A stretch of 23,422 bases of DNA from Candidatus Altiarchaeota archaeon. Lineage in GTDB: Archaea > Altiarchaeota > Altiarchaeia > IMC4 > SCGC-AAA252-I15. A program made the translations under genes and the position numbers. Positions 1 through 19,576 of the stretch are shown one piece after another; the first letter of the stretch is position 1, and each line of letters begins with the position of its first letter. Where the stretch lies: positions 1 through 23,422 of the forward strand of contig JBDRLL010000024.1 in the NCBI GenBank assembly GCA_043813075.1, read 5' to 3'. The notes beneath the pieces were generated by a model. The model was not told the origin of the DNA. It did no database searches and saw only the letters and a list, made by a program, of their open reading frames with translations.

Positions 1-356
1 GCGTAAGACAGGTTGTTCTGCGGGTACTTCCCGTCAATCAAGTCCTTTGTATACCTTTCATACCACCCCAATTCCGTGCAAGAACAGCCCATGTAAACTA
101 TGTCCGGATTATTCTCCTCGTAATACTCCAGCTTCTTCCCATAACTTGGCCTAACCCACAAGAGGTCGTCGTCTTCAACGTGAACTGCCTTCATTTGAAC
201 GGGGTTAGGACCCCCGAACTCTATCATCTCAGGCTTCAGCACATACGAGAATCCAACAACGTTCAATACTACTTCAATGAGGATGATTACGGTAAACAGG
301 GAGGTGATTAATAACGATATGCCTGCAAAAAACTCTTTAAGCAGTCTCCAATTCAT
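1..356 (-). CDS. Membrane-anchored SGNH/GDSL hydrolase-like protein (N-terminal part, runs off window)
   Basis: Manual translation from ATG at 356: MNWRLLKEFFAGISLLITSLFTVIILIEVVLNVVGFSY...DDDLLWVRP...PDIVYMGCSCTELG. N-terminal TM helix plus block-I-like G-x-S-x-T motif. Open to window edge and absent from the ORF track. Confidence 0.6.
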   Translation of the reverse strand, partial: MNWRLLKEFFAGISLLITSLFTVIILIEVVLNVVGFSYVLKPEMIEFGGPNPVQMKAVHVEDDDLLWVRPSYGKKLEYYEENNPDIVYMGCSCTELGWYERYTKDLIDGKYPQNNLSY

Positions 357-463
357 ACCCTCATTAATTATACTCTCTTTAATTAAAACCTAACTGGCAT
401 GTCTTGATTACCCCCTGAGATTCGCATCCTCTTCAACAGACCTAGGCATACTAATTCCAGGGA

Positions 464-478
464 GAAAAAGCTTAAAAA
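464..478 (+). promoter_or_regulatory. Putative BRE/TATA promoter for the DEAD-box helicase
   Basis: GAAAAAG-CTTAAAAA resembles GAAAAG-CTTTTTAAG upstream of L14e and implies a leader of about 160 nt. Confidence 0.45.
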
Positions 479-661
479 CACTCAAATCCGCCATACTATT
501 TGATTTATATACTCATACTTCGTACATATCTGAAAGAGAGTAGAATTTGGATTCGTTTTTACGAGATGATTGTTTTTCACATTAAACTGAAAAATTCTAT
601 CAGACGAGTAAAGAAATAAAAGAACCTGATTCTACAAACGTAAAACAGAAGTTGATTTAGA

Positions 662-1792
662 ATGGAAACCATAGAATTTGGAGAACTAGACTTGAGCAGT
701 CAAGTCTTACAGGATTTGGAATACCATGGGCTTAAGACAACAATGCCCATACAAACGGAGTCCATACCCGTCTTAATGAGCGGTAGGGACTTGATGGCGC
801 AGGCCAAGACAGGCACAGGAAAGACGCTGGCCTTCGCAATACCTATCGTGGAGAAGGTTAATCAGGAAGACCGGAGTGTTCAGGCGCTCGTCATAACACC
901 CACAAGGGAGCTTGCGATGCAGGTTTCAGGCGAGATAAAGAAGATCGGCTACAAGAAGAGGATTAATGTGGCGTGCGTTTACGGCGGTAAGAGCGTTAGC
1001 ACGCACGTTCAGATGCTTAGGAACGGATCTCAGATAGTCGTCGGCACTCCAGGGAGAATACTCGACCTCATAAACAGGAGGGCTTTAAACCTTGGTGGCG
1101 TTAGGATGCTCGTCCTTGACGAGGCAGATAGGATGCTTGACATGGGATTCATCGACGACATAAGGCGTATAATCTCTAACACCCCGCGTGAACGGCAGAC
1201 GATGCTGTTCTCAGCCACATTGAACGAGAGCGTGAAGGGTATGGCCCAGTCCATCATGAACGACCCGCTCGACATCTCGACCGGACAGGACGAGCTGCTT
1301 GTGGATGACATAGAGCAGTCCTACTATGAGGTTCCCCAGGAGGATAAGCTGGACGTGTTCATAGACGTTGTCAAGAAGGAGAAGCCGTCAAGCGCGATAG
1401 TATTCTGCAACACCAAACGTTGGGCTGACACGCTCATAAAGCTGATGAAGCGGAGGGGTATTGACGGAAGGGCTCTCCACGGAGACATGACGCAGGGCCA
1501 GAGGGAGGCGGTCATGGAAGGATTCAGGAAGAACCGTTTCAAGTTCCTCGTGGCCACCGACGTTGCCGCGAGGGGGCTGGACATCGACGACGTGAGTCAC
1601 GTGTTCAACTACGACATACCCATAGACCCTGAAAACTACGTCCACCGTGTTGGTAGGACCGGTCGTGCTGGAAAGGCGGGTAAGGCGATATCCTTCGTAA
1701 GCCAGCGGGAGATAAGGAGTCTCTGGGATATTGAAAACAGGTGCGAGACCACGATACCCAAGGCAGACTTAGCGTCCTTAAAGTGGGCGTAA
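662..1792 (+). CDS. DEAD-box ATP-dependent RNA helicase (core only, DeaD/CshA-like)
   Basis: Q motif (F..L.L, MPIQ), AKTGTGKT, PTRELA, GG, TPGR, DEAD, SAT, HGDMTQ, TDVAARGLD, HRVGRTGRAG. Confidence 0.97.
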   Translation: METIEFGELDLSSQVLQDLEYHGLKTTMPIQTESIPVLMSGRDLMAQAKTGTGKTLAFAIPIVEKVNQEDRSVQALVITPTRELAMQVSGEIKKIGYKKRINVACVYGGKSVSTHVQMLRNGSQIVVGTPGRILDLINRRALNLGGVRMLVLDEADRMLDMGFIDDIRRIISNTPRERQTMLFSATLNESVKGMAQSIMNDPLDISTGQDELLVDDIEQSYYEVPQEDKLDVFIDVVKKEKPSSAIVFCNTKRWADTLIKLMKRRGIDGRALHGDMTQGQREAVMEGFRKNRFKFLVATDVAARGLDIDDVSHVFNYDIPIDPENYVHRVGRTGRAGKAGKAISFVSQREIRSLWDIENRCETTIPKADLASLKWA

Positions 1793-1803
1793 AAGATAAT
1801 GAT

Positions 1804-1837
1804 GGGGGTCAAACACCCCCTACCCTATTTTTTTTTT
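1804..1837 (+). terminator. Terminator after helicase
   Basis: GGGGG-tcaaaca-CCCCC hairpin followed by a T10 run, between convergent genes. Confidence 0.65.
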
Positions 1838-1854
1838 AATTGAGCATCTCTGTG

Positions 1855-4119
1855 CTAGAGATAATTCCTTCTTGAGAACCTTGACGTCAGTGTCACTAAA
1901 AATCCGAGCGTGAAGTACCCTATTATCGCCTGAATCATAGTGTCCCTGAAGCCCAACTCCACCATCACCGTCATAGCGTACACGGCTCCGATGACGGACG
2001 AGACAGTGCTTATCCCATAAGTGATTGGTATCACATCCTCCCTCCCCATCTCAGAAAGCCTTAAGACCGCGTACGGATAGAACACGCCCAGACACAGGCC
2101 GACAGGCGCTATGATGCAAGCCGACATTAGAAGCCTGAACGCCAGGCCATCGCCCAGCATATTCCGGTTCACATACTCTACGGCAGTGAAGCACGCGAAA
2201 ATTATCATGCATACTATGAACGGGAACAACCTCATGTCAACCATACTCCTTATCCTACCCAACGCAATGCTCCCGAAACCGCTCGTCATCAGGAATATGC
2301 TTAGTACAGTGGCCATGCTGATGAACGGGTTCTGCAGGAATAACTCCAGTTTGGCTATGAACACTATCTCGCACACAAGATAGCAGAATCCGGTGATAAA
2401 AAGGTATGCTAGGACCTGTTTCGGCAGTCTCCCCGACTTCCTTGAATAAGCCAGGCTTAAGACAATAGAGGACATGACGGACACAATCATCAGGGTCGTT
2501 ATCTTAGCCCAACCTGAATAGCGTTTCTCATATATCTCAGGGGATATGATGGAATACTCCCCCAAACCCAGGCCAGCGAGGAACGGCCTGTCGTCAGTGA
2601 CTAGTCTATCACCCCCCTCAATAAGCCCCTCTATCAGCGAGTAATCCCCCCTTAATCCTGGGGCATACGCCATCTCAAGCTTAGGGTTCTCCTCAAGCTC
2701 CAGCAGGCCCTCAAGCTCGCTTCTCGAGAATCCTGTCGGCGAAATCAGCATCCTCCTCTCCCTACCATAGTTGAACATGACTATGGACTCGTTGAACCGT
2801 TTAAAACCCCTCTCATCCAGCACAGTCTTCATGTTAGCGAGAAAGACGTCGTGCCACATCATGTCCCCATAATACAACAGCACTCCGTTAGGATCCATGT
2901 GGTCGAGATAGAGCCTGAAAGCCTCAATAGTATCCAAGTACTTCCTGCTGTGCGCGGTAAGATACTGGGCGGTAGCCGCATGACTTGAAATGCACACCAC
3001 ATCATAAATCCCCTCATCCTCCTGCAGGAAGCTCCTGCCCTCCCGCAACTCAAGGTTAACGTTCGGCAGCCCATAGAACTCTGCGAGTCCAAAACCGCTT
3101 AATTCAGGCGCAGTCAACGCAATCTCCCTGACTAAAGGATTCAACTCAACCCCCGTGACATTCGCCCGGCCACCGGAATACTCGTTGAAGTAGATCATGT
3201 CATACCCGCATCCCGCAAACATCACCAGGACCTTGTTCACACTGCGGTTCAATAGAAACGCGGACTTGCTGAAATCCACGCCACCCCCACGCGGAGAATC
3301 CCCACTATACTGCCTGACCCCCACCCCACTATACGCCGCATCATGGACTATCAAATACTCCCCCTCATCAGGGAAAGACAGCAAGGCAACCCTTGAAAAC
3401 TCGTTCCACCCGTGCGCAACATCAACAACACGCCTCCTCCTGAGGAACAGGTTCTCAAAATCATAGTTATCCTCCATGAAAGAGACAATCCAAAAACTAG
3501 CCGTGCACAACAAGACTGACGCCAACAAAAGAAGAGCCTTACCCCTAACCTGCCTGCCCGAAAAATAAACCCCAAAAACAGATATGACCAGGAAATACGA
3601 GGAGACTAAGGCCGGCAAGTCCAGGAAGTGGAACAAAACCGGTGTCGTGAAGCAAGCCAGCGCCGCCCCAGTCAAGTCGGCCCCGTAAAGCACCCCCACC
3701 TGGCTCCCACCCATCATGTAGACTACTGCAAAAACCCTGCCGATAAAAAAGAAAGGCACTGAAAACACGAGTATGAACACGACAATCTTGAAGACACTCA
3801 CCAGGCTGAACAGGAAATGACCCCTACCCAGCCAGAAAGAAATCCCGAAAAACACCATCACAAACAACACAGAGAAGAAAGCAGATGCTATAAAATGCGT
3901 CAAACCCCTCCTCAAGTCAAAACCACCAGCCGGCACACCCCTCAAGTGGACGTAAAGACTCCCCACAGCAAGACCGAAAAGCGTTATCGGTATCGCCAGA
4001 AAACTGTTCTCATAACCCAGGTGAAAGTTAGCCACCCTGTTGATAATCAACTCGAGACTCAACACAGAGAAAGACGACAAAAACACGAGAAGCTTAAGAC
4101 TAGTCCCCCCACCACTCAT
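1855..4119 (-). CDS. Membrane-bound spermidine-synthase-like / class I SAM-binding protein (TM block - Rossmann domain - TM block)
   Basis: N-terminal LELII.R, GLAVGS, LYGADLTGAALAC; central KVLVMFAGCGYD, VTGVELNP, EGRSFL, YDVV, YLDTIEAF; VTDDRPF; C-terminal TM block with EIVFI.KLELFL.NP. Confidence 0.8.
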   Translation of the reverse strand: MSGGGTSLKLLVFLSSFSVLSLELIINRVANFHLGYENSFLAIPITLFGLAVGSLYVHLRGVPAGGFDLRRGLTHFIASAFFSVLFVMVFFGISFWLGRGHFLFSLVSVFKIVVFILVFSVPFFFIGRVFAVVYMMGGSQVGVLYGADLTGAALACFTTPVLFHFLDLPALVSSYFLVISVFGVYFSGRQVRGKALLLLASVLLCTASFWIVSFMEDNYDFENLFLRRRRVVDVAHGWNEFSRVALLSFPDEGEYLIVHDAAYSGVGVRQYSGDSPRGGGVDFSKSAFLLNRSVNKVLVMFAGCGYDMIYFNEYSGGRANVTGVELNPLVREIALTAPELSGFGLAEFYGLPNVNLELREGRSFLQEDEGIYDVVCISSHAATAQYLTAHSRKYLDTIEAFRLYLDHMDPNGVLLYYGDMMWHDVFLANMKTVLDERGFKRFNESIVMFNYGRERRMLISPTGFSRSELEGLLELEENPKLEMAYAPGLRGDYSLIEGLIEGGDRLVTDDRPFLAGLGLGEYSIISPEIYEKRYSGWAKITTLMIVSVMSSIVLSLAYSRKSGRLPKQVLAYLFITGFCYLVCEIVFIAKLELFLQNPFISMATVLSIFLMTSGFGSIALGRIRSMVDMRLFPFIVCMIIFACFTAVEYVNRNMLGDGLAFRLLMSACIIAPVGLCLGVFYPYAVLRLSEMGREDVIPITYGISTVSSVIGAVYAMTVMVELGFRDTMIQAIIGYFTLGFLVTLTSRFSRRNYL

Positions 4120-4154
4120 GTATGATATTAAACACCCAAACTAAAAATCCAGGC

Positions 4155-4463
4155 TCACACCTGGCTAACACTGCCAGTCCACACGATAAACAGCAAGCAG
4201 CCCCCAGGCCCAGTCGACACCTGATGCACGCCCTCAGTCGAATTCACTATGAAATCACCGGCCCCATGCTCCCCCGCCTGGTCAGTGAAGCCACCATCCA
4301 AAACATAAACCCACTCAAAACCATCATGCACGTGAGGCATGTCAGTGAAATCCGAATCAATCCTAATCAAATCAGCTTGGATGCCCTTCTCACTGTTGAC
4401 CGCCAACGGCCTCCTCCACACACCCTCCCGCAGCATAACCCAATCATCATCCACGCTAATCAA
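4155..4463 (-). CDS. Cupin-domain protein (ChrR-like cupin)
   Basis: W......GVWRRPL, PHVHDGFEWVYVLDGGF.D, G...GDFIVN, H.V.T..GGCLLF. Confidence 0.8.
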   Translation of the reverse strand: MISVDDDWVMLREGVWRRPLAVNSEKGIQADLIRIDSDFTDMPHVHDGFEWVYVLDGGFTDQAGEHGAGDFIVNSTEGVHQVSTGPGGCLLFIVWTGSVSQV

Positions 4464-4846
4464 CCCACAGTCTTCTCCTTAACCTTCTCTTGGAACTCCG
4501 GAACCCTCTTAAGCTTACCCAACCTCCTCAAACGCGCAAGCTTCAAAAACCTGGCGAAACGCGCGACACGAAAAATCCTGAACACAGGAACCGCAGACAA
4601 CACATCCAACCAATTCCTATACAAAAACACGCGCAAAGGCCCGTTAAAACCCCTCCAAAGGAACCACAAGTCCGCTATAAACACGCACAACGCGGTGATG
4701 TCTATCACATACAGGAAAATCAGCCGACCCTCATCCAACTCATACATGAACTCCAATGAAACCGAGACAACACTAACCACGGCAGCAGTGAAAACAACCA
4801 CATCCCACAGGAGATGCCTCCACGTAATCTGACCCCCATCCCTCAT
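4460..4846 (-). CDS. Stand-alone voltage-sensor-like (ion transporter S1-S4) membrane protein without pore
   Basis: S2 FIAD, S3 NWLDVLSAVP, S4 RIFRVARFARFLKLARLRRLGKLKR. Start ATG 4846 or TTG 4852. Stop overlaps the cupin start (ATGA). Confidence 0.8.
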   Translation of the reverse strand: MRDGGQITWRHLLWDVVVFTAAVVSVVSVSLEFMYELDEGRLIFLYVIDITALCVFIADLWFLWRGFNGPLRVFLYRNWLDVLSAVPVFRIFRVARFARFLKLARLRRLGKLKRVPEFQEKVKEKTVG

Positions 4847-4887
4847 AAACAATCAAAAATTAAACCCCCCGACAGATAAAACAAAAC

Positions 4888-4902
4888 AAAACCTTATAAA
4901 TA
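4888..4902 (+). promoter_or_regulatory. BRE/TATA promoter of the tRNA-Ile2 locus
   Basis: AAAACC-TTATAAATA. Confidence 0.65.
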
Positions 4903-4940
4903 AACCAACCCCATAATATTACCCGAAAACACACAAAAAC

Positions 4941-5062
4941 GGGCCTGTAGCTGAACCTTACCAAGGTTCACGAACGGGCCATCTTCACCTAACGGCTCGA
5001 TGACCCTGAACAACCAAATTCAGGCGAGTAGCAAAAAACAACATACACAAGGGCCTGTAGCT
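4941..5062 (+). mobile_element. Structured non-coding mini-insert flanked by a 12-bp duplication of the tRNA-Ile2 5' end
   Basis: GGGCCTGTAGCT at 4941-4952 and 5051-5062. Internal hairpins TGAACCTT/AAGGTTCA, GGGCCATC/GATGACCC and CCTGAA/TTCAGG. Confidence 0.55.
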
Positions 5063-5125
5063 CAGTTCGGTTAGAGCGCTCGACTCATAATCGAGTGGTC
5101 GTGAGTTCGAGTCTCATCAGGCCCA
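5051..5125 (+). tRNA. tRNA-Ile2 (CAT, agmatidine type); Met elongator less likely
   Basis: Cloverleaf with GGGCCTG/CAGGCCC acceptor, CTCGA-CTCATAA-TCGAG anticodon arm and GTGAG-TTCGAGT-CTCAT T arm. GGGCC acceptor and A73 are typical of archaeal Ile tRNAs. CCA not encoded. Confidence 0.93.
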
Positions 5126-5160
5126 AGTTTTTTTTATCTGATAATTCATATTGATAATCT

Positions 5161-6519
5161 ATGAAATGTATTTTCTACCTAATACTTGTTGTTATACTGT
5201 GTGGTTGCATTAGTTCACTATCTGAAACAACAACCACAACTCAGCCTACTCTGGTCGTCAAGCCAACTATGCCATCTATTGTTACTTCTACGAAGCCAAC
5301 AACCACTAATCCCTCGGTGGAATTTTTCTGTGGGGATGGTATTTGCGATGCAAAGGAGAAGAAACTGGCCAGCTGCCCTCAAGATTGCAAAGAACTTTCT
5401 TGTACAAATGAATGCGGTGACGGGGAATGTGATTATGTCATATGTAAAAAAAATCCCTGTCCTTGTTTAGAGACAAAGAAGAACTGCCCCACTGATTGTG
5501 GACTAGAAGTCGAGCAAAATCCAGTTATCAAAAGTGTTTCTGTTGAAGGAGATCCCATAACTATAAAATCACAGGGGGACTTATGGCTGAACACTTGGGC
5601 AGATGATGATAATATTTACACAAGTTGGGGGGATGGTACTGGTTTTGGAAAAATTGAGACCGATTTTGGTATAGCAAAATTATTTGGCAATCCACCGAAT
5701 TTAGTGGGGGAGAACATATACAATGATCCTTGGCTCCTAGAAGAATGCGATTGCTCACATTGTGAAGAACGAGACAAAGAATGTTTTAAATCCTGTTCTG
5801 GACCCTGTAATGATAAGCCATCTAGCTTATTGTTTATTGATGGTAGGCTCTATGCTTACATTCATTCACCCCTTGGTGATCCAATGGTTGGTTATTTAGC
5901 TTATTCAGATGATTATGGCTTGACTTGGACAAGACTCAAAGATAGTTCCCCTTGGAAAGCATCTGATAAGTATGCAAATGATGGTAAATCTAAAATAGGA
6001 TCAAATTTTAGATGTATGTTTTTTATCAATATGGGCAAAAACTATAATTTGAATACTGATGATTATGTATATGCTTTTGGAATTGGCAGGGAATGGGGCT
6101 GGTATGAAGGTGTATACTTAGCAAGAGTGCCTAAAAACAAAATATTGGATTATTCCTCTTATACATATTTCATGGGGATGCAAAATAATCAACCACAGTG
6201 GTCTTTTCAGGAATCTAATGCACAACCGATTGCAGGTCTAACAACACCCGCCCAATTTTCATCGATATACCATCCAGGCATAAAAAGGTATATTATTCTT
6301 ACAGAAGAAAACCTGTATGAAGCCCTAAATCCCTGGGGGCCATGGACCCTGGCGGGAAGATGGGTGAAAAAAGGATGGCGTGGCTATCAACCCGGAATAA
6401 TCAGCAAAGATACAGGAGACGATTATTTTTGGTTTACAATAGCAGGCCAACCGTCTATAGGACAAGATATAAATTATAATCTAAATATTGGAAAAATAAC
6501 AATGAAACTCCGTGATTAA
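5161..6519 (+). CDS. Secreted lipoprotein: Thr-rich linker, Cys-rich CGDGxC repeats, DUF4185-like beta-propeller/glycosidase-like domain
   Basis: Lipobox-like ILCGC; CGDGICD and CGDGECD repeats; GDLWLNTWADD..YTSWGDGTGF, KPSSLLFIDG.LY, Asp-box AYSDDYGLTW, DDYVYAFG, VYLARVP, YEA.NPWGPW. Confidence 0.75.
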   Translation: MKCIFYLILVVILCGCISSLSETTTTTQPTLVVKPTMPSIVTSTKPTTTNPSVEFFCGDGICDAKEKKLASCPQDCKELSCTNECGDGECDYVICKKNPCPCLETKKNCPTDCGLEVEQNPVIKSVSVEGDPITIKSQGDLWLNTWADDDNIYTSWGDGTGFGKIETDFGIAKLFGNPPNLVGENIYNDPWLLEECDCSHCEERDKECFKSCSGPCNDKPSSLLFIDGRLYAYIHSPLGDPMVGYLAYSDDYGLTWTRLKDSSPWKASDKYANDGKSKIGSNFRCMFFINMGKNYNLNTDDYVYAFGIGREWGWYEGVYLARVPKNKILDYSSYTYFMGMQNNQPQWSFQESNAQPIAGLTTPAQFSSIYHPGIKRYIILTEENLYEALNPWGPWTLAGRWVKKGWRGYQPGIISKDTGDDYFWFTIAGQPSIGQDINYNLNIGKITMKLRD

Positions 6520-6535
6520 GAATAAATGATGGAGA

Positions 6536-6566
6536 TGGTCGTGAGTTCGAATCTCATCAGGCCCAA
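6536..6566 (+). repeat. att-like direct repeat of the tRNA-Ile2 3' end (31 bp, 1 mismatch)
   Basis: TGGTCGTGAGTTCGAaTCTCATCAGGCCCAA versus 5096-5126 TGGTCGTGAGTTCGAgTCTCATCAGGCCCAA. Confidence 0.95.
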
Positions 6567-6586
6567 ATTATTGTGTTTTCGTTTTC

Positions 6587-7072
6587 CTATTTTTTGTCGG
6601 CTTTGAGTATTTCTTTTAGTTTTTGTCTGTGTTTGTTTATGTCTTCTGTGGTTAGTTTTTGTATGTGGTCGTATGTTTTGGCGTTGAAGTTTTCGGCTGT
6701 TTTTATGAGTCGTCTGGCGTCTTCTTTTGTGACCTGGAAGTCTATGTAGTATTGTTTGTCCACGCGCTCCCTTTTCGCTTTCTGGATTTCCGCGTTATCC
6801 AATCCGAATACATCATGGACTATGATTATGGTGGCTGAGTGGTTCTCAGATTTTATGCCTGCCTTGAAGAGGAGGGATAGTGCGGAGTAGTACATGCTGT
6901 AGTATGTCATCGATACTGCTTCCTCTAGCTTGTTATTGTCCAAGAGTATTTTCGACGAGGAGAGGTAGCTCTCTGATTTCTTGAGGTAGGCTTCTTTGAT
7001 TTCGTCGCTTGGTTCCACCATCTGGAGCTTGCCCTCCTCACTGATTTTAGCCAAAAAATCCTGTTTTTTCAT
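6587..7072 (-). CDS. HEPN domain protein (putative toxin)
   Basis: YLKKSESYL.S...LL, YYSMYYSA..LL...GIKSENH, R...QY; overlaps the upstream MNT gene. Confidence 0.85.
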   Translation of the reverse strand: MKKQDFLAKISEEGKLQMVEPSDEIKEAYLKKSESYLSSSKILLDNNKLEEAVSMTYYSMYYSALSLLFKAGIKSENHSATIIIVHDVFGLDNAEIQKAKRERVDKQYYIDFQVTKEDARRLIKTAENFNAKTYDHIQKLTTEDINKHRQKLKEILKADKK

Positions 7073-7592
7073 AGTATCTTTCGACGCCTTTAATTATTAC
7101 GTGGTTTTTCTCAATCTCCCTGGCCAGCAGGTTGTCTTTGTCGTAGTCCCCGATTTTAACGCTTAAGCTGCTGTCCAAATATTCGAGTTCGGTTTTTATC
7201 TTCCTTTTTTTAGTTTCCGCGTATATGTCTATGTCGCTGTCCTTTGTTGCCGTGTTTTTCGCGTAGCTTCCGAACAGGAGTGCCATATTAATCCTCTGGT
7301 CGCACTGTATCCTCTCCACCATCCTTCTTAGGTGGGGGTACCTGTCAAGGACCTTAACGAGCTTGTAGTGTTCGGCCATGAAGATGTAGCCTCTTGTCTC
7401 AACGGTTTTTTTGAGGAAATAGGTCTTGTTTTTGCCTGCCTCATGGAAGTCGACCACGTTAGCCCTTAAGAGTTCTTTGAGTCTGCGGTTGACGGTCATG
7501 TGGTTGGTTTTCATTTTTTTGGCTAACAGCCGGGGGTGGTTCTCCTCCTTCAGGAGGGCGTCAACCAACTCTAGTGTTAAATTCTGTTCCAC
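7047..7592 (-). CDS. wHTH-fused minimal nucleotidyltransferase (MNT, putative antitoxin)
   Basis: N-terminal wHTH (HPRLLAKKMKTNHMTV.RRLKEL...NVV); LFGSYAK....KDSDIDI motif. GTG at 7592 fits TATA spacing better than TTG at 7601. Confidence 0.88.
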   Translation of the reverse strand: MEQNLTLELVDALLKEENHPRLLAKKMKTNHMTVNRRLKELLRANVVDFHEAGKNKTYFLKKTVETRGYIFMAEHYKLVKVLDRYPHLRRMVERIQCDQRINMALLFGSYAKNTATKDSDIDIYAETKKRKIKTELEYLDSSLSVKIGDYDKDNLLAREIEKNHVIIKGVERYYEKTGFFG

Positions 7593-7623
7593 ATGTAACA
7601 AATATGTTACATCATTTATAAAT
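7593..7623 (-). promoter_or_regulatory. TATA box plus palindromic operator of the MNT-HEPN operon
   Basis: TTTATAAA (7623-7616) followed by perfect inverted repeat ATGTAACA-n4-TGTTACAT (7593-7612). Confidence 0.7.
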
Positions 7624-7679
7624 GAAAATTAACAATAATTTATCGTCCAGCCAGGGTGTGGAACTTGGTGGGTGACTGG

Positions 7680-7690
7680 CATCAGGCCCA
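7680..7690 (+). repeat. Third, shorter copy of the tRNA-Ile2 3' end (11 bp)
   Basis: CATCAGGCCCA equals 5115-5125, is intergenic, ends at the discriminator base and is followed by a T-tract. Confidence 0.75.
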
Positions 7691-7738
7691 CTTTTTATCA
7701 TAATCCATCATTGTAAAGTAGTCACCTTAGTAAATCCC

Positions 7739-9106
7739 TTACCCTATGAAGTTTATGTAGCCAATGTTCCTGAGTTTTTCCAGCACGTCCTCGTCGTATT
7801 CCTTGTTGTAGCCTATCCCCCTCTCGTATTCCTCCTTAAGCTTGTTGAATACGTCCGGCTCTTTATCAATCAAGTCCTCCTCCATCCTAGGGTCTTTAGC
7901 CACGTTGTGTAGGGAGCTTTTAGCCTTGTTTTTCCCTATCACCGCGAAGTAGTCGCCTTTTTTTATGGTCTTGCCCTCATAGTATCCCGCGTACTGGATC
8001 CTATCATGCTTCTTCTCTTTCAGCAGGCTCTCCCCCCTAAGATTCAAGTCCACATACACACCGGTTAACTCCATTATCGTCGGCATTATGTCCACGTTCA
8101 TGACAGGATAGTCGAGCACCTTATGCTCTTCGGAAGGGAGTCGCAGTATCAGCGGGGTGTGCAGGCTCTGATAGTCCAACTCATTATGCCCGAACTTGTT
8201 TCTCTCCCCCAGCGTCTGGCCGTGGTCTGTCGAGACTATCAGGATGCTTTTGTCGAGCAGTCCTTTACCCTCAAGATGCCCGACCAGCCTCCCGAACTCC
8301 GCGTCACCATAGTGCACGTTGCTGTCGTATAACGCTATCAACTGCTCTACCATGGATTCAGTCAGGTTCCTCCTGTCATAGTTGAAGTAGTTGTACGTCT
8401 CCACTTTCTCCTCCATAACTCCGGAATAATAATCTAACGCTTTCTGGCCTGACTGACTGTCATTCAAGTCTCTTACCCGTATCCCATAGTCTGTGACGTT
8501 AAAAGAAAAACTAATGGGATACTCCCCCTGCTTGTCATAGAATCCCCTGAACAGGGACTCGTTTTTAACGAATGGGGGGTGGGGTTCCATATAATGCACC
8601 CACAGGAAGAACGGGCCACCATCATGTCCCTCAAGAATACTAATGGCCTTGTCACTGATTTCCGCAGCAGTAGTGTCCTTGCACGTATCATAGATGTCGA
8701 ATCCATTCACTTTCGTGCTGCTCCTCCCCGCGTATTCATTAGCCACTAGCGCGTAGGTGGAGTATCCACTGGCCTTCAGCACCTCAGCAATAGACGTTGA
8801 CTCGAGGTTGTCGACCTGCGGGTATTTTGAGGTCAGGAAGGATGGTGTTGAGGTTATGGTGGACGCTGACTGCGAGAAGGAATTCGTGAACACGAGTGAT
8901 TTCAAGCACAAAGAGTCTATGTTAGGCGAAGTACCCTTCTGATAACCATAACACCCGAGGTGGTCTGGCCTCAACGCGTCAAAAGTGATTAGGATGACGT
9001 TAGCCTTAGGGTACACATTCACGGGTTCCAAAACCGCCTCCTCTCTCGGAGTCACACACCCCCCAGAAAACAGGACTAAAGCCAAGATGAATGCGCAGGC
9101 CTTCAT
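7739..9106 (-). CDS. Secreted sulfatase-like hydrolase/transferase (alkaline phosphatase superfamily)
   Basis: Signal/lipobox; NVILITFDALRPDHLGCYGY, TSPNID, STITSTPSFLTSKYP, PFFLWVHYMEPH.P, STDHGQ, GH, C-terminal LRNIGYI. Confidence 0.9.
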   Translation of the reverse strand: MKACAFILALVLFSGGCVTPREEAVLEPVNVYPKANVILITFDALRPDHLGCYGYQKGTSPNIDSLCLKSLVFTNSFSQSASTITSTPSFLTSKYPQVDNLESTSIAEVLKASGYSTYALVANEYAGRSSTKVNGFDIYDTCKDTTAAEISDKAISILEGHDGGPFFLWVHYMEPHPPFVKNESLFRGFYDKQGEYPISFSFNVTDYGIRVRDLNDSQSGQKALDYYSGVMEEKVETYNYFNYDRRNLTESMVEQLIALYDSNVHYGDAEFGRLVGHLEGKGLLDKSILIVSTDHGQTLGERNKFGHNELDYQSLHTPLILRLPSEEHKVLDYPVMNVDIMPTIMELTGVYVDLNLRGESLLKEKKHDRIQYAGYYEGKTIKKGDYFAVIGKNKAKSSLHNVAKDPRMEEDLIDKEPDVFNKLKEEYERGIGYNKEYDEDVLEKLRNIGYINFIG

Positions 9107-9157: not shown

Positions 9158-9538
9158 CTACTCTTTCTCCTTGAATTCCAGTGCGATAGAGTTTATGCAG
9201 TACCTTTTGCCCGTCGGCTTGGGGCCGTCGTCGAACACGTGGCCTAGGTGTCCCCCGCACTTGCTGCACAATACTTCAGCGCGTTCCATGCCGTGGCTGT
9301 AATCCGTCTCAGTATTAACGGATTCGGTCGAGGCGGTGTCAGTGAAGCTGGGCCATCCTGTCCCAGAATCGTATTTGTCTTCAGAAGTGAAGAGCGCATG
9401 CCCGCAGGCTTTACAGGCGTAGACCCCCCTCCTCTTGTTTTCAACATATTCCCCCGTGAAAGCGGGTTCAGTCCCCTTCTCCCTCAGCACATGGTATTCA
9501 TCGGGGCCTAGTCTCTTCTTCCACAAGTCATTCTTCAC
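9158..9538 (-). CDS. msrB: Peptide-methionine (R)-S-oxide reductase
   Basis: [53 protein letters not shown]. Confidence 0.97.
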
Positions 9539-10734
9539 GTTAGCTCACCTTCCGGGCATCTTCCTTCAGTCCAGAATTCCACTCTCTTGTCAGTGCACGC
9601 GACGCACTCGTTCGAGTAGGTTTCAGCGCACGGGTGTCCACTACACTCGACTTTCTCGGTGTCCAACCACCCGCACACCGGCTTGTACAGCATTATGCAC
9701 CCCACCATCTCCCTGTCCTCTTTCTTGCAGTAATTCTTCTCAGTCTCCCCGCCTTTCCTCCAGCACCCGCAGCCCAGTTCATCCTGGAACTGCTCTTCGC
9801 CACTATCACACCCCAAATCCATTGTACTGCACTTTTCAGGGTCCTGGCTGACATACCTCTTAACAGCCCTAATATCCTTTGGAGTGCAGCATAATGCGGG
9901 TAACGCAAAACCCGCTACCCTACCGGCGTTAACCTCGTTTTCACCGCACTTTCCGTCGTCAGCGAGTTTCACCACGACACCCCCTGATGCATTACACTCA
10001 TCTGGCGTTAGGGTTTTTCCAGTGACTATCCAGTCATCCAGGCTAACGTCAACCCTACTGTCGTCAACACTGAAATGCACTAGGAAGCAGCCCCTGCATT
10101 TCCCGACGTCAACGCCGATAACAGTCAGCCCTGTCTCGAAGCCAACGTACTCGACCGCCTTCCCAGCAGCCTTCCGCTGGTTATCGTTCAGCTCCCACGT
10201 CCTGGTGCACGCGCCCACATCCTCGCTCCAACTGTATCCTGCAGGACCAAGACAACCGTGTTCGTCTTTCTGCCCGCCCACTATCGTGTCGTCCTTCACA
10301 GGTTCTTCGACAACCTCGACATACGTATTGCCTTCAGAATCCCGGCATTGTCTAGGATAGCTTTCCATCACCGGATACCCTTCATCAAGGCATTCCTGGA
10401 AGTTGGACACCGTCTTGCGAGGGTTCCTGCAGTAATACTGGCATTTTCCAGTATCCACATTGTACCTCCATCTTCCAACACATTTATCGTGTGGAGTGTC
10501 CTTATTCTCCCGCACGCAGCAGTCGTCCCTATTCTTGGGGTTCACCGTACCGCAGCTGCCGCCCACGATAGGATTGTCCTGGCTTGCGTTGCCCTTAAAA
10601 ATGCTTATCTCCTCACGCAGTCCAGATAAGGGTACTATCCTACCCATCTCCACTAAAACCAACACTATGAACAACAATACCACTAGTATAACACCCATCC
10701 CCGTCAAAACCTTTCTACCTGCCATATCAACCAT
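9535..10734 (-). CDS. Membrane-anchored modular Cys-rich surface protein with C-terminal Kazal-like domain
   Basis: N-terminal TM; modules NFQEC...[29 protein letters not shown].....C.R.WE, RYVS.DPE.C....C and [10 protein letters not shown]...TYSNEC.AC. Confidence 0.7.
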
Positions 10735-12227: not shown

Positions 12228-12228
12228 A

Positions 12229-12279
12229 ACCCTTTTCTTTCTTGTAAGAAAGAAAAGCGTTCACGGAAAAGAAAGAACA
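12229..12279 (+). repeat. Palindromic module Y in the Ser/Ala spacer
   Basis: CTTTTCTTTCT-tgta-AGAAAGAAAAG followed by CGTTCACGGAAAAGAAAGAACA; related copy on the minus strand at 19509-19552. Confidence 0.7.
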
Positions 12280-12283
12280 AAAA

Positions 12284-12391
12284 GGGCTCGTAGATCAGAC
12301 TGGTAGATCGTCCGCTTGGCATCGGATGCGGGAAAAACATCCGCGTCCGACAGAATGCGGGAGGCCTCGGGTTCGAATCCCGACGAGTCCA
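12284..12391 (+). tRNA. tRNA-Ala (GGC) with 34-nt intron at 37/38 (12322-12355)
   Basis: GGGCTCG/CGAGTCC acceptor with G3.U70; TCCGC-TTGGCA|T-GCGGG; intron hairpin CGGATGCGG/CCGCGTCCG in a BHB arrangement. Confidence 0.92.
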
Positions 12392-12413: not shown

Positions 12414-13568
12414 CTATGCTCTTCTCACCGCTATTATCTGCCCGACGTAGTCTTTTTCAGGCAGGTCTTTTAGGGGCATGAATTCCCCTTCAGGCACCTG
12501 GCTTATCTGAACTGGCTTACCCTTGTCGTTGCGGTATCTGAGCTGAGACCTCACTCTTATATCAAAACCAGATTCCTCAGCCTTCTTGAGTTCAGCCCTT
12601 AGTTTCTTGTCCATCAGGTCTTGCATGTCCCCGGTTTCTAATTGTTTTGGCGGGTCTCCGCCATAAAGGTATCTCAGGTATGTCTCCCTCTCCGGCATCT
12701 TGTCCGCCAGAAGGCAGAAGCTCCCCAAACCCACATAGTCTTCTATCCCAATGTATGCTGCATGCCTCGTTAGGTTCAGCATGTTCCTGACCGCAACGTT
12801 CGGCAGCGGCGAATGCCTCAGCGAATGCTCTGAAATGATGATGTCAACGCCCTGCCTTAATTGTGCTGGAGCGACTTCAGCCCCCATCAGGTGGACTCCA
12901 TCGACTTCACGGTATACGCGGTACCCCAGGTCAGTCATATGAGCTGAGACACTGTCGCCGAGAATATCCTTCATACCCCTGATGACCCTCCCATGCCCGC
13001 CTCCGATATCCCAGAGGCTGACCGGGCGGACACCGTCATATAATCCACCAACCCTACGGCAGACCTCGTCATGCATCCAGTACCTCTCGTTCTCACCGAC
13101 GCTGACATAATCCTCAGTATCCCACGCGTACTTGCTCCTATGCCTGTCAAAGGCTTCAATGTCTGTGACAGCCCTCTCAGCCTCTTCAGGACCTTCCTTC
13201 CCATCAACCCATCTCGCGAATTTAAGCAGGCTCTCACCGTTGCCAAGCAATTGTATCCTCGTGTTGGCTCTCACAACATCCTCCTCATGCGGGGATAATG
13301 GCGTCGCCTTTTCACCAGCCATCATCGACGATACGTCCGCGTCAACTTCGGGCGTGATCGGCTTGTCCCAGCTTCTCCTCCCGTGAATGCAGTCTAGGAT
13401 AGCCTTTCTTACCCTGGATTGGGTTTGCTTCTGGTCGGGTGGGTTATGATGTATCCCCACCTTCTCGTGAATCCTGCCTTCAGGAGGCTTCACAGCGTCC
13501 CCGCCGCCAGACTCGCTTATCATGATAGATACTCTAGGAACACCAGGCTTATATGCTGGGTCTACCAT
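12414..13568 (-). CDS. Hypothetical protein with class I SAM-dependent methyltransferase-like domain
   Basis: SLWDIGGGHGR motif I, AHMTDL, VDIIISEHSLRH; long unassigned N-terminus; start uncertain. Confidence 0.6.
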   Translation of the reverse strand: MVDPAYKPGVPRVSIMISESGGGDAVKPPEGRIHEKVGIHHNPPDQKQTQSRVRKAILDCIHGRRSWDKPITPEVDADVSSMMAGEKATPLSPHEEDVVRANTRIQLLGNGESLLKFARWVDGKEGPEEAERAVTDIEAFDRHRSKYAWDTEDYVSVGENERYWMHDEVCRRVGGLYDGVRPVSLWDIGGGHGRVIRGMKDILGDSVSAHMTDLGYRVYREVDGVHLMGAEVAPAQLRQGVDIIISEHSLRHSPLPNVAVRNMLNLTRHAAYIGIEDYVGLGSFCLLADKMPERETYLRYLYGGDPPKQLETGDMQDLMDKKLRAELKKAEESGFDIRVRSQLRYRNDKGKPVQISQVPEGEFMPLKDLPEKDYVGQIIAVRRA

Positions 13569-14533: not shown

Positions 14534-14977
14534 TTATTCCCCTATGTCCTCGTTCCAGAGTCCCGGGTTCTCATCTATGAACTTTCTCATCATCTCCACG
14601 CACTCCTCCTCGTTCAGGACTTCGACCTCAACACCCCGGCCCCTAACGTATTCCTCAGGCCCCTTGAAATTCACGTTCTCGCCCACGACTATCCTCGGTA
14701 TCCCGTAAAGCAATACCGCTCCACTGCACATGTCGCAGGGAGAGAGGGTGGAATACAGTACCGACCTTCCGTATACGCTCGCCTTCTGCCTGCCGGCGTT
14801 CTCCAGGCAATCCATCTCAGCATGCTTGATCACACTACCCTCCTGCACCCTCCTGTTATGCCCCCTCCCAATGATCCTCCCGTCAACCACCAAGACGCTG
14901 CCTATGGGTATGCCCCCCTCATCCAGTCCCTTCCGCGCTTCATCGAGCGCTGCCTCCATGTACTCATCCATCATCAC
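14534..14977 (-). CDS. Cytosine/nucleoside deaminase (Fcy1-like)
   Basis: EGGIPIGSVLV, GHNRRVQ, HAE, SPCDMC zinc motif, C-terminal WNEDIGE. Confidence 0.92.
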   Translation of the reverse strand: MMMDEYMEAALDEARKGLDEGGIPIGSVLVVDGRIIGRGHNRRVQEGSVIKHAEMDCLENAGRQKASVYGRSVLYSTLSPCDMCSGAVLLYGIPRIVVGENVNFKGPEEYVRGRGVEVEVLNEEECVEMMRKFIDENPGLWNEDIGE

Positions 14978-19362: not shown

Positions 19363-19436
19363 GCCTCAGTAGCTCAGTTGGCCGGAGCGACCGACTTGTA
19401 ATCGGTAGGTCGGGGGTTCAAATCCCTCCTGGGGCT
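19363..19436 (+). tRNA. tRNA-Thr (TGT)
   Basis: GCCTCAG/CTGGGGC acceptor, ACCGA-CTTGTAA-TCGGT anticodon arm, T73; TATA TTTATATT at 19318. Confidence 0.96.
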
Positions 19437-19576
19437 AACGGCTCACTCCGTTAACACGTGGGAGCCATCTTCGCTAACGCTCGATGCCTCAGCATGTTAC
19501 ATCAAATCTGTTCTCTTTCCGTGCACGCTTTCTTTTTTTGAAAAGAAAGGGTGCTTTAAACACCTCCTGGGGCTAA
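19425..19576 (+). mobile_element. Structured non-coding mini-insert flanked by a 14-bp duplication of the tRNA-Thr 3' end
   Basis: CCTCCTGGGGCTAA at 19425-19438 and 19563-19576; contains hairpin module X (19462-19490) and inverted module Y (19509-19552). Confidence 0.65.

What the first reader, a model, noticed from the sequence alone, without database searches (positions are those of the whole stretch)
5051..7690. Integrase-free, integron-like tandem cassette array anchored on the tRNA-Ile2 3' end
Seen: tRNA, then a single AT-rich lipoprotein gene with only about 35 bp upstream and 16 bp downstream, then a 31-bp tRNA 3' copy, then an MNT-HEPN operon, then an 11-bp tRNA 3' copy. The repeats get shorter with distance, and no recombinase gene is present in the window. 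Known: tRNA 3' ends are attB sites for tyrosine-integrase islands, which are normally larger and encode the integrase. Integron cassettes are gene-sized and often carry toxin-antitoxin pairs. Inference: sequential capture of 1.1-1.4 kb cassettes with the tRNA end as the recombination site, newest cassette proximal, possibly expressed by read-through from the tRNA promoter.
Basis: partly seen in the sequence, partly recalled or inferred. Interest (0 to 1): 0.85.

Follow-up and report, generated by a model that had tools for sequence, protein, structure and literature searches.

The report
Gene cassettes stacked behind an archaeal tRNA
Two compact gene units, each ending in a copy of the tRNA's own 3' end, sit one after the other behind an archaeal tRNA gene; they look like integrase-less leftovers or hitch-hikers of ordinary tRNA-targeted integration, not a new integron-like system.

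Summary
tRNA(CAU) lies at 5051-5125. A DUF4185 lipoprotein gene follows, then a 30-nt copy of the tRNA 3' end (6536-6565), then a HEPN-MNT pair, then an 11-nt copy (7680-7690).

- The proximal unit is recent and foreign: GC3 is 0.31, against 0.60-0.67 in neighbouring genes.
- The live tRNA carries a base (G59) that the displaced copy and all five relatives' tRNAs lack, as expected if the incoming element supplied the new 3' end.
- A same-genus genome has a 4.3-kb element with a tyrosine integrase at this tRNA, followed by more 3' copies and a one-gene cassette.
- Content between this tRNA and the next conserved gene varies from 2.1 to 12 kb among genera.

No integrase was found in this 89%-complete genome. 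The units are therefore integrase-less and unusually compact. Whether they decayed from larger elements or were always small and moved in trans is open.

The integron analogy fails on defining features. Read-through expression is unlikely, because eight T's follow the tRNA.

A wider pattern is unexplained. Many tRNAs here carry short copies of their own ends 65-220 nt away, next to hairpin modules that also occur as tRNA introns.

The parts
4941..4952 (+). 12-nt copy of the tRNA 5' end (GGGCCTGTAGCT). Its upstream leader is also similar (27 nt at 78%).
   Evidence: (D4). The same 12-nt copy (22 nt in G020) lies about 100-130 nt upstream of this tRNA in G002, G012 and G020.
4953..5050 (+). Structured spacer between the 5' copy and the tRNA: a GAACC...GGTTC hairpin, then a CCATCTTC...CTCGATGAC module.
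   Evidence: for 4938-5050, MFE -33.1 kcal/mol, z -4.49, 0 of 200 shuffles folded as well. The module recurs in tRNA introns and tRNA flanks of this genome.
5051..5125 (+). tRNA(CAU), the attachment site. Its T-loop reads GAGTC, where the displaced copy and the five relatives examined read GAATC or AAATC.
   Evidence: (73.1 bits).
5126..5160 (+). Left junction of cassette 1: eight T's (terminator-like) and AT-rich sequence directly before the ATG.
   Evidence: A role as terminator or promoter is inferred, not tested.
5161..6519 (+). Cassette 1 cargo: a 452-aa secreted or lipoprotein-like DUF4185 protein with a signal peptide ending in Cys, a Thr/Pro-rich linker and Cys-rich repeats.
   Evidence: (PF13810, E 7.4e-15), (best relatives only 57-62% identical; GC 0.386, GC3 0.305).
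6536..6565 (+). Displaced original 3' end of the tRNA (30 nt, 1 mismatch): right boundary of cassette 1 and left boundary of cassette 2.
6587..7072 (-). HEPN-domain protein, 161 aa.
   Evidence: (PF05168, E 6.5e-11).
7047..7601 (-). wHTH + minimal nucleotidyltransferase (MNT), 184 aa. It overlaps the HEPN gene by 26 nt.
   Evidence: PF18765, PF01909; MntA, 36.3 bits, below the cut-off; a GS...DxD stretch, read by eye; PADLOC candidate families PDC-M05A and PDC-S09.
7602..7679 (+). Right end of cassette 2: AT-rich region upstream of the MNT gene, then a hairpin-like flank (GGAACTTGGTGGGTGACTGG) next to the copy.
   Evidence: this region aligns with the sequence before the 11-nt copy in G020. 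It resembles the 'y' hairpin module found before 3' copies at other tRNAs.
7680..7690 (+). 11-nt copy of the tRNA 3' end, followed by CTTTTT.

Best explanation
The locus is a tandem accretion of two small integrase-less units at the 3' end of tRNA(CAU), built by site-specific (tyrosine-integrase type) recombination.

Proposed order of events:
1. Before the last event the tRNA was followed directly by the HEPN-MNT unit (6566-7679), which ends in a hairpin-like flank and an 11-nt tRNA-end copy.
2. A 1.44-kb circle then recombined with the tRNA somewhere between positions 46 and 58. The circle carried a foreign DUF4185 gene and a 30-nt or longer imitation of this tRNA's 3' end.
3. The circle's imitation became the working 3' end of the tRNA. 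The original 3' end was pushed 1.44 kb downstream.

The enzyme is not encoded in the units. It acted in trans, or was lost, or lies in the unassembled part of the genome.

Shown: the repeats, the compositional age order, the base difference between tRNA and displaced copy, variable content among relatives, and an integrase element at the same site in a sister genome.

Inferred: the circular intermediate, the crossover interval, and which enzyme acted.
For: 1. Direct repeats of the tRNA 3' end lie in the right configuration: downstream and same strand.

2. Cassette 1 is compositionally foreign. GC is 0.38 and GC3 0.305, against GC3 0.60-0.67 for the six neighbouring genes other than HEPN and MNT. 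HEPN and MNT are near host values at 0.56 and 0.62.

3. The tRNA has G at T-loop position 59. The displaced copy, and the tRNAs of all 5 relatives examined (G001, G020, G002, G012, G016), have A.

4. In same-genus G001 the orthologous tRNA is followed by:
- a 309-aa PF00589 integrase (E 3.5e-19), type I restriction genes and a 24-nt copy, making a 4.3-kb element;
- then a 17-nt copy;
- then a single 218-aa methyltransferase gene and another 24-nt copy.
Its copies share the 23-nt core GAGTTCGAATCTCATCAGGCCCA with the G000 copy.

5. Homologues of that integrase (37-41% identity) sit directly downstream of tRNA-Lys and tRNA-Arg in G019. The tRNA-Lys element is 3.4 kb and is closed by a 16-nt copy.

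6. The stretch between the tRNA and conserved orf399 is 5.6 kb here, 2.1 kb in G002 and about 12 kb in G012. HEPN-MNT DNA was found in 2 of 40 relatives: once behind this tRNA (G020) and once elsewhere (G016).

7. Arrays made by re-use of one attachment site are described for archaeal and bacterial elements:
- PMC6563490 (passages read);
- bioRxiv 10.1101/2020.12.28.424599 (passages: newcomers push older elements further into the island, and partial tRNAs mark old events);
- PMC5704250 (passages: definition of CIME and the accretion model).
Against: - No tyrosine recombinase was found in G000, not even a Xer-like one. The assembly is 89% complete, and 14 of 20 relatives have PF00589.
- No integrase remnant lies in or beside the units.
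- The units are much smaller (1.1 and 1.4 kb) than elements usually called at tRNAs, and have almost no non-coding DNA. Random decay of a larger island does not predict this.
- The flanks of cassette 1 share nothing with those of the G001 integrase element apart from the core.
- The distal junction (short copy plus hairpin flank) is of the kind seen at many other tRNAs with inserts of only 70-220 nt, and once at a protein gene with a 56-nt duplication around a 46-nt insert. A classical integrase with a fixed attP does not easily explain these.
- No circular junction or empty site could be observed.
Confidence: 0.7

Rival explanations
1. At least the distal unit, and perhaps both, was made by the same unidentified process that has placed short hairpin-ended inserts next to many tRNA ends in this lineage. 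Each such insert is bounded by a copy of the neighbouring gene end. On this reading the units are cargo-carrying versions of those mini-inserts, and no cis or classical integrase is needed.
For: - By exact 11-mers, 8 of 32 tRNA candidates have a 3' copy downstream. Seven of these lie at 73-221 nt.
- 5 of 32 have a 5' copy upstream, at 65-122 nt.
- The wrong-side controls gave 0 of 32 and 0 of 32.
- The conserved 24-nt 'y' hairpin precedes 3' copies at tRNA-Pro, Ile and Cys here, at tRNA(CAU) in G002, and at tRNA-Gln and Ser in G035.
- The motif occurs in 9 of 41 genomes from four families, against 0 for the reversed-pattern control.
- In L114 a 46-nt insert ending in this hairpin sits at the stop codon of a protein gene, between two 56-nt copies of the gene end.
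- The left flank of the 11-nt copy in G000 aligns with that of G020 and resembles y.
Against: - The first junction (30 nt, no y hairpin) looks like a classical displaced tRNA fragment, as do the 24-nt copies in G001.
- No enzyme is proposed. No reverse transcriptase, Cas1, serine recombinase or Y1 transposase was found in G000.
- The resemblance of 7660-7679 to y is weak.
- Mini-inserts could still be products of integrases whose attP extends into shared trailer modules, as in the G019 tRNA-Lys element.
Confidence: 0.2
2. A true integron-like platform: a host recombinase such as XerA, encoded elsewhere, captures and shuffles promoterless cassettes at the tRNA end, and these are expressed from the tRNA promoter.
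For: - The units are gene-sized and integrase-less, and include a toxin-antitoxin-like pair.
- The y hairpin is an imperfect palindrome with a compensatory A-U to G-C change at its base. That would suit a structure-specific recombinase.
Against: - No Xer or integron integrase was found in G000.
- Eight T's follow the tRNA.
- Cassette 2 is on the opposite strand, with its own AT-rich upstream region.
- Only one of the two units ends in a hairpin.
- A conventional integrase element sits at the same site in G001.
Confidence: 0.06
3. Artefact or chance: the low-GC segment is a mis-assembly joined through the 30-nt repeat, and the 11-nt copy is a chance match.
For: - The contig comes from a metagenome-type assembly of 41 contigs.
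- An 11-mer allowing one mismatch is expected 0.45 times per window.
Against: - A chimera would need two joints at the same 30-nt repeat, and the foreign piece would itself have to be bounded by that tRNA end.
- The same architecture occurs independently in G001 and G020.
- The flank of the 11-nt copy is conserved in G020.
Confidence: 0.03

Closest known systems
Tandem accretion of integrated elements at a tRNA attB, with CIMEs (cis-mobilizable elements) beside integrase-bearing elements, as in streptococcal ICE/IME islands (PMC5704250, passages read)
   Same: - The units keep attachment-site copies on both sides but lack integration genes.
- A newcomer integrates at the copy that carries the gene end.
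- In G001 an integrase-bearing element sits in the same array.
   Different: - The host is archaeal and there is no conjugation machinery.
- The units are far smaller, one gene or one operon, and fully compact.
- Descent from a decayed larger element is not shown.
Tycheposons and their island remnants in Prochlorococcus (bioRxiv 10.1101/2020.12.28.424599, passages read)
   Same: - Integration is at tRNAs.
- Repeated integrations push older elements further in.
- Partial tRNAs mark old events, and the cargo is adaptive or defensive.
   Different: - The domain of life and the integrase lineage differ.
- No integrase or replication module is present in the G000 units.
- Activity has not been tested.
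Archaeal integrative elements at tRNA genes (SSV-type and pNOB8-type integrases; 'gene capture in archaeal chromosomes'; review PMC8371274, passages read; She et al. 2001 seen only in its reference list)
   Same: - The tRNA 3' end is the target and direct repeats bound the element.
- The integrase lies next to attL in G001 and G019.
- In all 3 integrases examined the stop-to-stop frame runs back into the tRNA.
   Different: - The G000 units hold neither an intact nor a split integrase.
- Whether the G001 enzyme is of the partitioning (SSV) type is unresolved. An in-frame ATG lies before attR in G001, but a stop lies there in G019.
Sugahara et al. 2012 model of tRNA gene disruption in Caldiarchaeum (PMC3293823, abstract read)
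   Same: - A 5' fragment of a tRNA lies upstream of the intact gene.
- Intron gain is linked to integration of a mobile element.
- Here too, intron-like modules sit next to tRNA-end copies.
   Different: - There the insert was 1.8 kb and encoded a recombinase.
- Here most inserts are 65-220 nt with no gene, and they occur at many tRNAs.
Integrons
   Same: Gene-sized units in a row at one site, including a toxin-antitoxin-like pair.
   Different: There is no IntI, no attI/attC pair, no common promoter and mixed gene orientation. The repeat is a piece of a tRNA.

Membership tests
Integron | An integron integrase gene (IntI, a tyrosine recombinase) adjacent to the capture site | tested here: not met
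   No PF00589 match among the window ORFs or in the 89%-complete genome.
Integron | Each cassette ends in an attC hairpin site | tested here: not met
   Cassette 1 ends in plain sequence plus the 30-nt tRNA copy. Only cassette 2 has a hairpin-like flank.
Integron | Promoterless, co-oriented cassettes expressed from a platform promoter | tested here: not met
   Eight T's follow the tRNA, and cassette 2 is on the minus strand. Expression itself was not measured.
tRNA-targeted genomic island (Islander criteria, PMC4383910, passages read) | An intact tDNA plus a displaced 3' fragment downstream in the same orientation | tested here: met
tRNA-targeted genomic island (Islander criteria, PMC4383910, passages read) | An integrase gene inside the island, and a length of at least 2 kb | tested here: not met
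   No integrase. The units are 1.41 and 1.11 kb. Both criteria are met by the G001 element.
CIME (cis-mobilizable element) | Attachment-site copies on both sides, with no integration or transfer genes | tested here: met
CIME (cis-mobilizable element) | Derived by decay of an integrase-bearing element, and mobilised together with a neighbour | not testable with these tools
   No remnant was seen, and no read evidence for excision was obtained.
HEPN-MNT (type VII) toxin-antitoxin pair | An MNT with the nucleotidyltransferase motif next to a HEPN protein, with overlapping genes | tested here: met
   PF18765/PF01909 and PF05168, a 26-nt overlap, and a GS...DIDIY stretch in the MNT (read by eye).
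HEPN-MNT (type VII) toxin-antitoxin pair | The Rx4-6H RNase motif in the HEPN protein (motif recalled, not from a call) | tested here: inconclusive
   No clear Rx4-6H was seen by eye. The NCBIfam MntA score of 36.3 is below the cut-off of 60.
SSV-type (self-partitioning) integrase, for the G001 enzyme | attP lies inside the integrase reading frame | tested here: inconclusive
   The open frame runs through the tRNA end in 3 of 3 integrases. An in-frame ATG lies before attR in G001, but a stop lies there in G019.

The most novel reading that the evidence does not exclude
This archaeal lineage harbours a family of tiny hairpin-ended mobile modules. They insert at the ends of tRNA genes, and also beside a 5S rRNA gene and at the end of a protein gene, and they copy the adjoining gene end as they go. 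The same modules occur as tRNA introns. Occasionally one carries a gene-sized cargo such as HEPN-MNT. That would give both a route by which archaeal tRNA introns arrive and a way of capturing genes without an integrase in cis.
Probability: 0.2. Interest if true: 0.8.

Novelty: new variant of a known kind. Interest (0 to 1): 0.5.

Why it matters
Arrays of integrated elements at tRNA genes are well known, so the core of the finding is ordinary. Three things are less ordinary:
- The units are stripped to one gene or one operon plus attachment-site copies.
- This recurs in three genera (G000, G001, G020).
- The genome carrying them shows no recombinase at all.

If such units move in trans, small archaeal genomes would have a cheap way to swap single genes at tRNA sites. 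Here the genes are a secreted DUF4185 protein, a toxin-antitoxin-like pair and a methyltransferase.

The wider pattern touches an open question. A 2026 preprint on Asgard tRNA introns states in its abstract that how the introns arrive remains open (10.64898/2026.10.13.758758, abstract read). Here, copies of tRNA ends sit beside hairpin modules that double as tRNA introns.

Tried and rejected
- Reads. One search for public runs found only small shares, 0.07-0.10, in three DNA runs, and no RNA holder was listed. Laying them gave short low-depth contigs. Identical pieces fell at 4700-4853, 6615-6765, 6802-6952, 7354-7548 and 7707-8000. Nothing fell on 5255-6586. No contig joined across either unit, and there was no circular or empty-site joint. 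This gives no evidence on excision, absence or expression.
- Integrase remnants. tblastn of the G001 integrase against G000 gave only chance-level hits. The best was E 0.22, inside ORF 12414-13568, which has no Pfam recombinase match.
- DUF4185 as a travelling cassette. Of 58 metagenome loci encoding relatives, 2 had any tRNA in the fetched flanks, and neither tRNA was adjacent to the gene. ARAGORN was run there without intron search. The closest proteins are only 57-62% identical. A donor was not found.
- A degenerate attachment-site remnant beside the HEPN-MNT copy of G016. The local alignment score was 22, which I treat as noise.
- Rfam. Nothing but tRNAs reached the gathering score in the window. 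Nothing relevant appeared at E up to 10 in 4880-5160.
- Other enzyme classes in G000. No serine recombinase, Cas1, reverse transcriptase or Y1 transposase was found. The assembly is 89% complete.
- Naming the tRNA as Ile2. This was not resolved.
- Scan of genome contigs with the integrase alignment. It returned 4 loci, one of them bacterial and weak. One named record is placed by NCBI taxonomy in candidate division pMC2A384.
- The sigma-70 promoter scan does not apply to archaea and was ignored.
- Supplements of the papers were not consulted.


Full report
WHAT IS THERE

The window is a whole 23.4-kb contig (C24) of a 1.8-Mb, 41-contig, 89.29%-complete archaeal assembly.

- A tRNA with anticodon CAT lies at 5051-5125.
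- 35 nt later a 452-aa ORF begins (5161-6519). It has a signal peptide ending in Cys, a Thr/Pro-rich linker, Cys-rich repeats and a DUF4185 domain.
- 16 nt after its stop comes a 30-nt copy of the tRNA 3' end with one mismatch (6536-6565).
- Next, on the minus strand, come a HEPN gene (6587-7072) and a wHTH-MNT gene (7047-7601), which overlap by 26 nt.
- Next comes an 11-nt copy of the tRNA end (7680-7690).
- A sulfatase gene follows.

The repeats exceed chance. None of the 19 window ORFs scanned has a recombinase domain.

AGE ORDER AND DIRECTION OF THE LAST EVENT

- The DUF4185 gene has GC3 of 0.305. The six neighbouring genes other than HEPN and MNT have 0.60-0.67. HEPN and MNT have 0.56 and 0.62. 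The proximal unit is therefore recent and foreign, and the distal one resident or long ameliorated.
- The best database relatives of the DUF4185 protein are 57-62% identical and come from many sediment-type lineages.
- The working tRNA reads GAGTC in its T-loop. The displaced 30-nt copy reads GAATC, as do the orthologous tRNAs of G001, G020, G002 and G012; G016 reads AAATC.
- This is what integration predicts. The incoming DNA supplies the new 3' part of the tRNA, and the original 3' part is displaced to the far end of the insert.
- It places the crossover between tRNA positions 46 and 58 (inference).
- It follows that before this event the tRNA was joined directly to 6566, that is, to the HEPN-MNT unit.

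RELATIVES

A DNA search of 40 relatives, together with fetched loci, shows that this tRNA sits between a conserved upstream ORF and conserved orf399/Cbf5.

- What lies between the tRNA and orf399 differs: 5.6 kb here, 2.1 kb in G002, about 12 kb in G012.
- Of the six tRNA(CAU) loci I read (G000, G001, G002, G012, G020, G016), five have at least one downstream 3' copy. G016 has none.
- Four of the six have an upstream 5' copy. G001 and G016 have none.
- HEPN-MNT DNA was found in 2 of the 40 relatives. In G020 it lies right after an 11-nt copy behind this tRNA. In G016 it lies in an unrelated place at 75% identity.
- Its proteins are 67-72% identical across genera, whereas orf236 and orf399 are 35-49% identical. 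This fits mobility.

THE INTEGRASE

In G001, of the same genus, the orthologous tRNA has a canonical intron. It is followed by:
- a 309-aa ORF with a Phage_integrase domain (E 3.5e-19);
- a 966-aa type I restriction R subunit and a fragment of an S subunit;
- a 24-nt copy of the tRNA end, which closes a 4.3-kb element;
- 67 nt later a 17-nt copy;
- then a single 218-aa methyltransferase gene and another 24-nt copy.

The 23-nt core of these copies is identical to that of the G000 copy. Homologues at 37-41% identity, with the catalytic R, HxxR, H and Y columns invariant in the alignment, lie directly downstream of tRNA-Lys and tRNA-Arg in G019. The tRNA-Lys element is 3.4 kb and ends in a 16-nt copy.

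The lineage therefore has small tRNA-targeting integrase elements, and this tRNA is one of their sites. G000 itself shows no tyrosine recombinase, while 14 of 20 relatives do. With 11% of the marker genes missing, this is 'not found', not 'absent'.

READING

The array is best explained by repeated site-specific integration at one attachment site. This is known for archaeal and bacterial elements (PMC6563490, PMC8371274 and bioRxiv 10.1101/2020.12.28.424599, passages read). Its units correspond to what the streptococcal literature calls CIMEs: attachment sites kept, integration genes gone (PMC5704250, passages read).

What stands out is their compactness:
- cassette 1 has 35 and 16 nt of non-coding DNA;
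- cassette 2 has 21 and 78 nt;
- the G001 methyltransferase unit has about 49 and 6 nt.

No pseudogene debris is present. I cannot tell whether they were trimmed from larger elements or were always minimal circles moved in trans.

Standard island finders would not report them. Islander, for one, demands an integrase and at least 2 kb (PMC4383910, passages read).

WHY NOT AN INTEGRON, AND WHY NOT READ-THROUGH

There is no integrase beside the site. There is no hairpin site at the end of cassette 1. Gene orientation is mixed. A run of eight T's follows the tRNA directly. From established knowledge, not tested here, oligo-T tracts terminate archaeal transcription. The 35-nt AT-rich junction could instead act as the promoter of a leaderless mRNA (inference).

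A SECOND KIND OF JUNCTION, AND A GENOME-WIDE PATTERN

The 11-nt copy is preceded by GGAACTTGGTGGGTGACTGG. The same flank precedes the 11-nt copy in G020. Similar sequence precedes the 17-nt copies in G001 and G002.

In G002 that flank is a sharply conserved module: a variable hairpin, then GGGAGGT, then a 9-bp hairpin ATCGGAACC-NTA-GGTTCTGAT. The same module precedes 3' copies at tRNA-Pro, Ile and Cys in G000.

A survey of the tRNA candidates of G000 by exact 11-mers gave:
- 8 of 32 with a 3' copy downstream, seven of them at 73-221 nt, with only the present tRNA at kilobase distances;
- 5 of 32 with a 5' copy upstream, at 65-122 nt;
- 0 of 32 and 0 of 32 for the wrong-side controls.

The candidate list mixes 20 Rfam-supported tRNAs with 12 ARAGORN intron calls of lower reliability.

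The 24-nt motif occurs in 9 of 41 genomes from four families, with none for the reversed control. Its closing pair switches A-U to G-C together. The contexts I read include:
- before tRNA 3' copies (G035 tRNA-Gln, 20 nt; tRNA-Ser, 10 nt);
- directly before a whole tRNA (G023);
- inside a tRNA-Arg intron (G027);
- behind a 5S rRNA-like gene, recognised by eye only (G034);
- as a 31-nt tandem array (G017);
- in L114, as a 46-nt insert at the stop codon of a protein gene, between two 56-nt copies of the gene end, with the stop codon replaced.

The spacers next to the copies consist of further modules: a GAACC...GGTTC hairpin, a CCATCTTC...CTCGATGAC hairpin, and a T/A-rich double hairpin. These recur as canonical-position tRNA introns and as tRNA trailers in this genome.

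In the G019 tRNA-Lys element these modules lie on both sides of the element, next to attL and attR, so they are part of the homology between element and host. That fits the proposal that mobile elements carry introns into tRNA genes through their attachment sites (Sugahara et al. 2012, PMC3293823, abstract read; cited in PMC8371274, passage read).

A classical integrase does not obviously explain inserts of 46-220 nt with duplications of 10-56 nt. I leave that mechanism open. No reverse transcriptase, Cas1, serine recombinase or Y1 transposase was found in G000.

VERDICT

It is wrong to set this apart from integrase-driven integration or to liken it to an integron.

I rate it a new variant of a known kind. 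The interest lies in the gene-sized, debris-free units, and still more in the unexplained tRNA-end duplications with intron-like modules.

Limits:
- No read-level test of mobility succeeded.
- Only six orthologous loci were read.
- The relatives are draft genomes.
- Paper supplements were not seen.

Noticed in passing
window 4941-5050: A 12-nt copy of the tRNA 5' end, with a similar leader, lies 99 nt (by the count) upstream of the tRNA. It is followed by a strongly folding spacer (z -4.49). The likely TATA-like sequences lie upstream of the copy, not of the tRNA. The copy is present in G002, G012 and G020 but not in G001 or G016.
   Followed up: partly
window 19363-19574: tRNA-Thr(UGU) is followed by the same hairpin modules. 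At 19563-19574 there is a 12-nt copy of its own 3' end, 126 nt after the tRNA.
   Followed up: partly
window 12228-12391: The 55-nt spacer between tRNA-Ser(GCU) and the next, intron-bearing tRNA is about 91-96% identical to the introns of two other tRNAs of this genome (C6:2940-3134 and C6:87750-87910). The module behaves as both intron and trailer.
   Followed up: partly
G000 genome-wide (C10:139669-139936, C10:99080-99385, C6:92165-92350, C27:9639-9954, C3:22822-23028 and others): Many tRNAs carry copies of their own 5' end upstream or 3' end downstream at 65-221 nt. At tRNA-Val(UAC) the duplicated segments include 18 nt of leader and 28 nt of trailer. The 3' copy with its preceding hairpin is also present, degenerate, in G012.
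   Followed up: partly
L114 (G027:C62) about 1440-1600; L119 (G017:C29) 1500-1750: In L114 the conserved 'y' hairpin module is inserted at the stop codon of a protein gene, between two 56-nt copies of the gene end. In L119 it forms a tandem array of 31-nt period behind tRNA-Gln.
   Followed up: no
G000 whole assembly: No tyrosine recombinase of any kind, not even a Xer-like one, was found in the 89%-complete assembly. 14 of 20 relatives have at least one.
   Followed up: partly
L011 (G001:C106) 771-5920: The integrase element of the sister genome carries a type I restriction R subunit and a fragment of an S subunit. The next single-gene unit encodes a methyltransferase with a PADLOC 'mad2' match. 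The cargo at this site leans towards defence.
   Followed up: partly
L028 (G019:C43), reverse strand 117-3691: tRNA-Lys has a 23-nt 5' copy 88 nt upstream and a 3.4-kb integrase element downstream. The hairpin modules after the tRNA are repeated after the 16-nt copy at the far end of the element.
   Followed up: partly
window 1855-4119, 4122-4832, 9535-10734, 14974-16590: Four sizeable ORFs (754, 236, 399 and 538 aa) have no Pfam match. The first three also have no NCBIfam match, and the 538-aa ORF was not scanned there. orf236 and orf399 are conserved in position in relatives.
   Followed up: no
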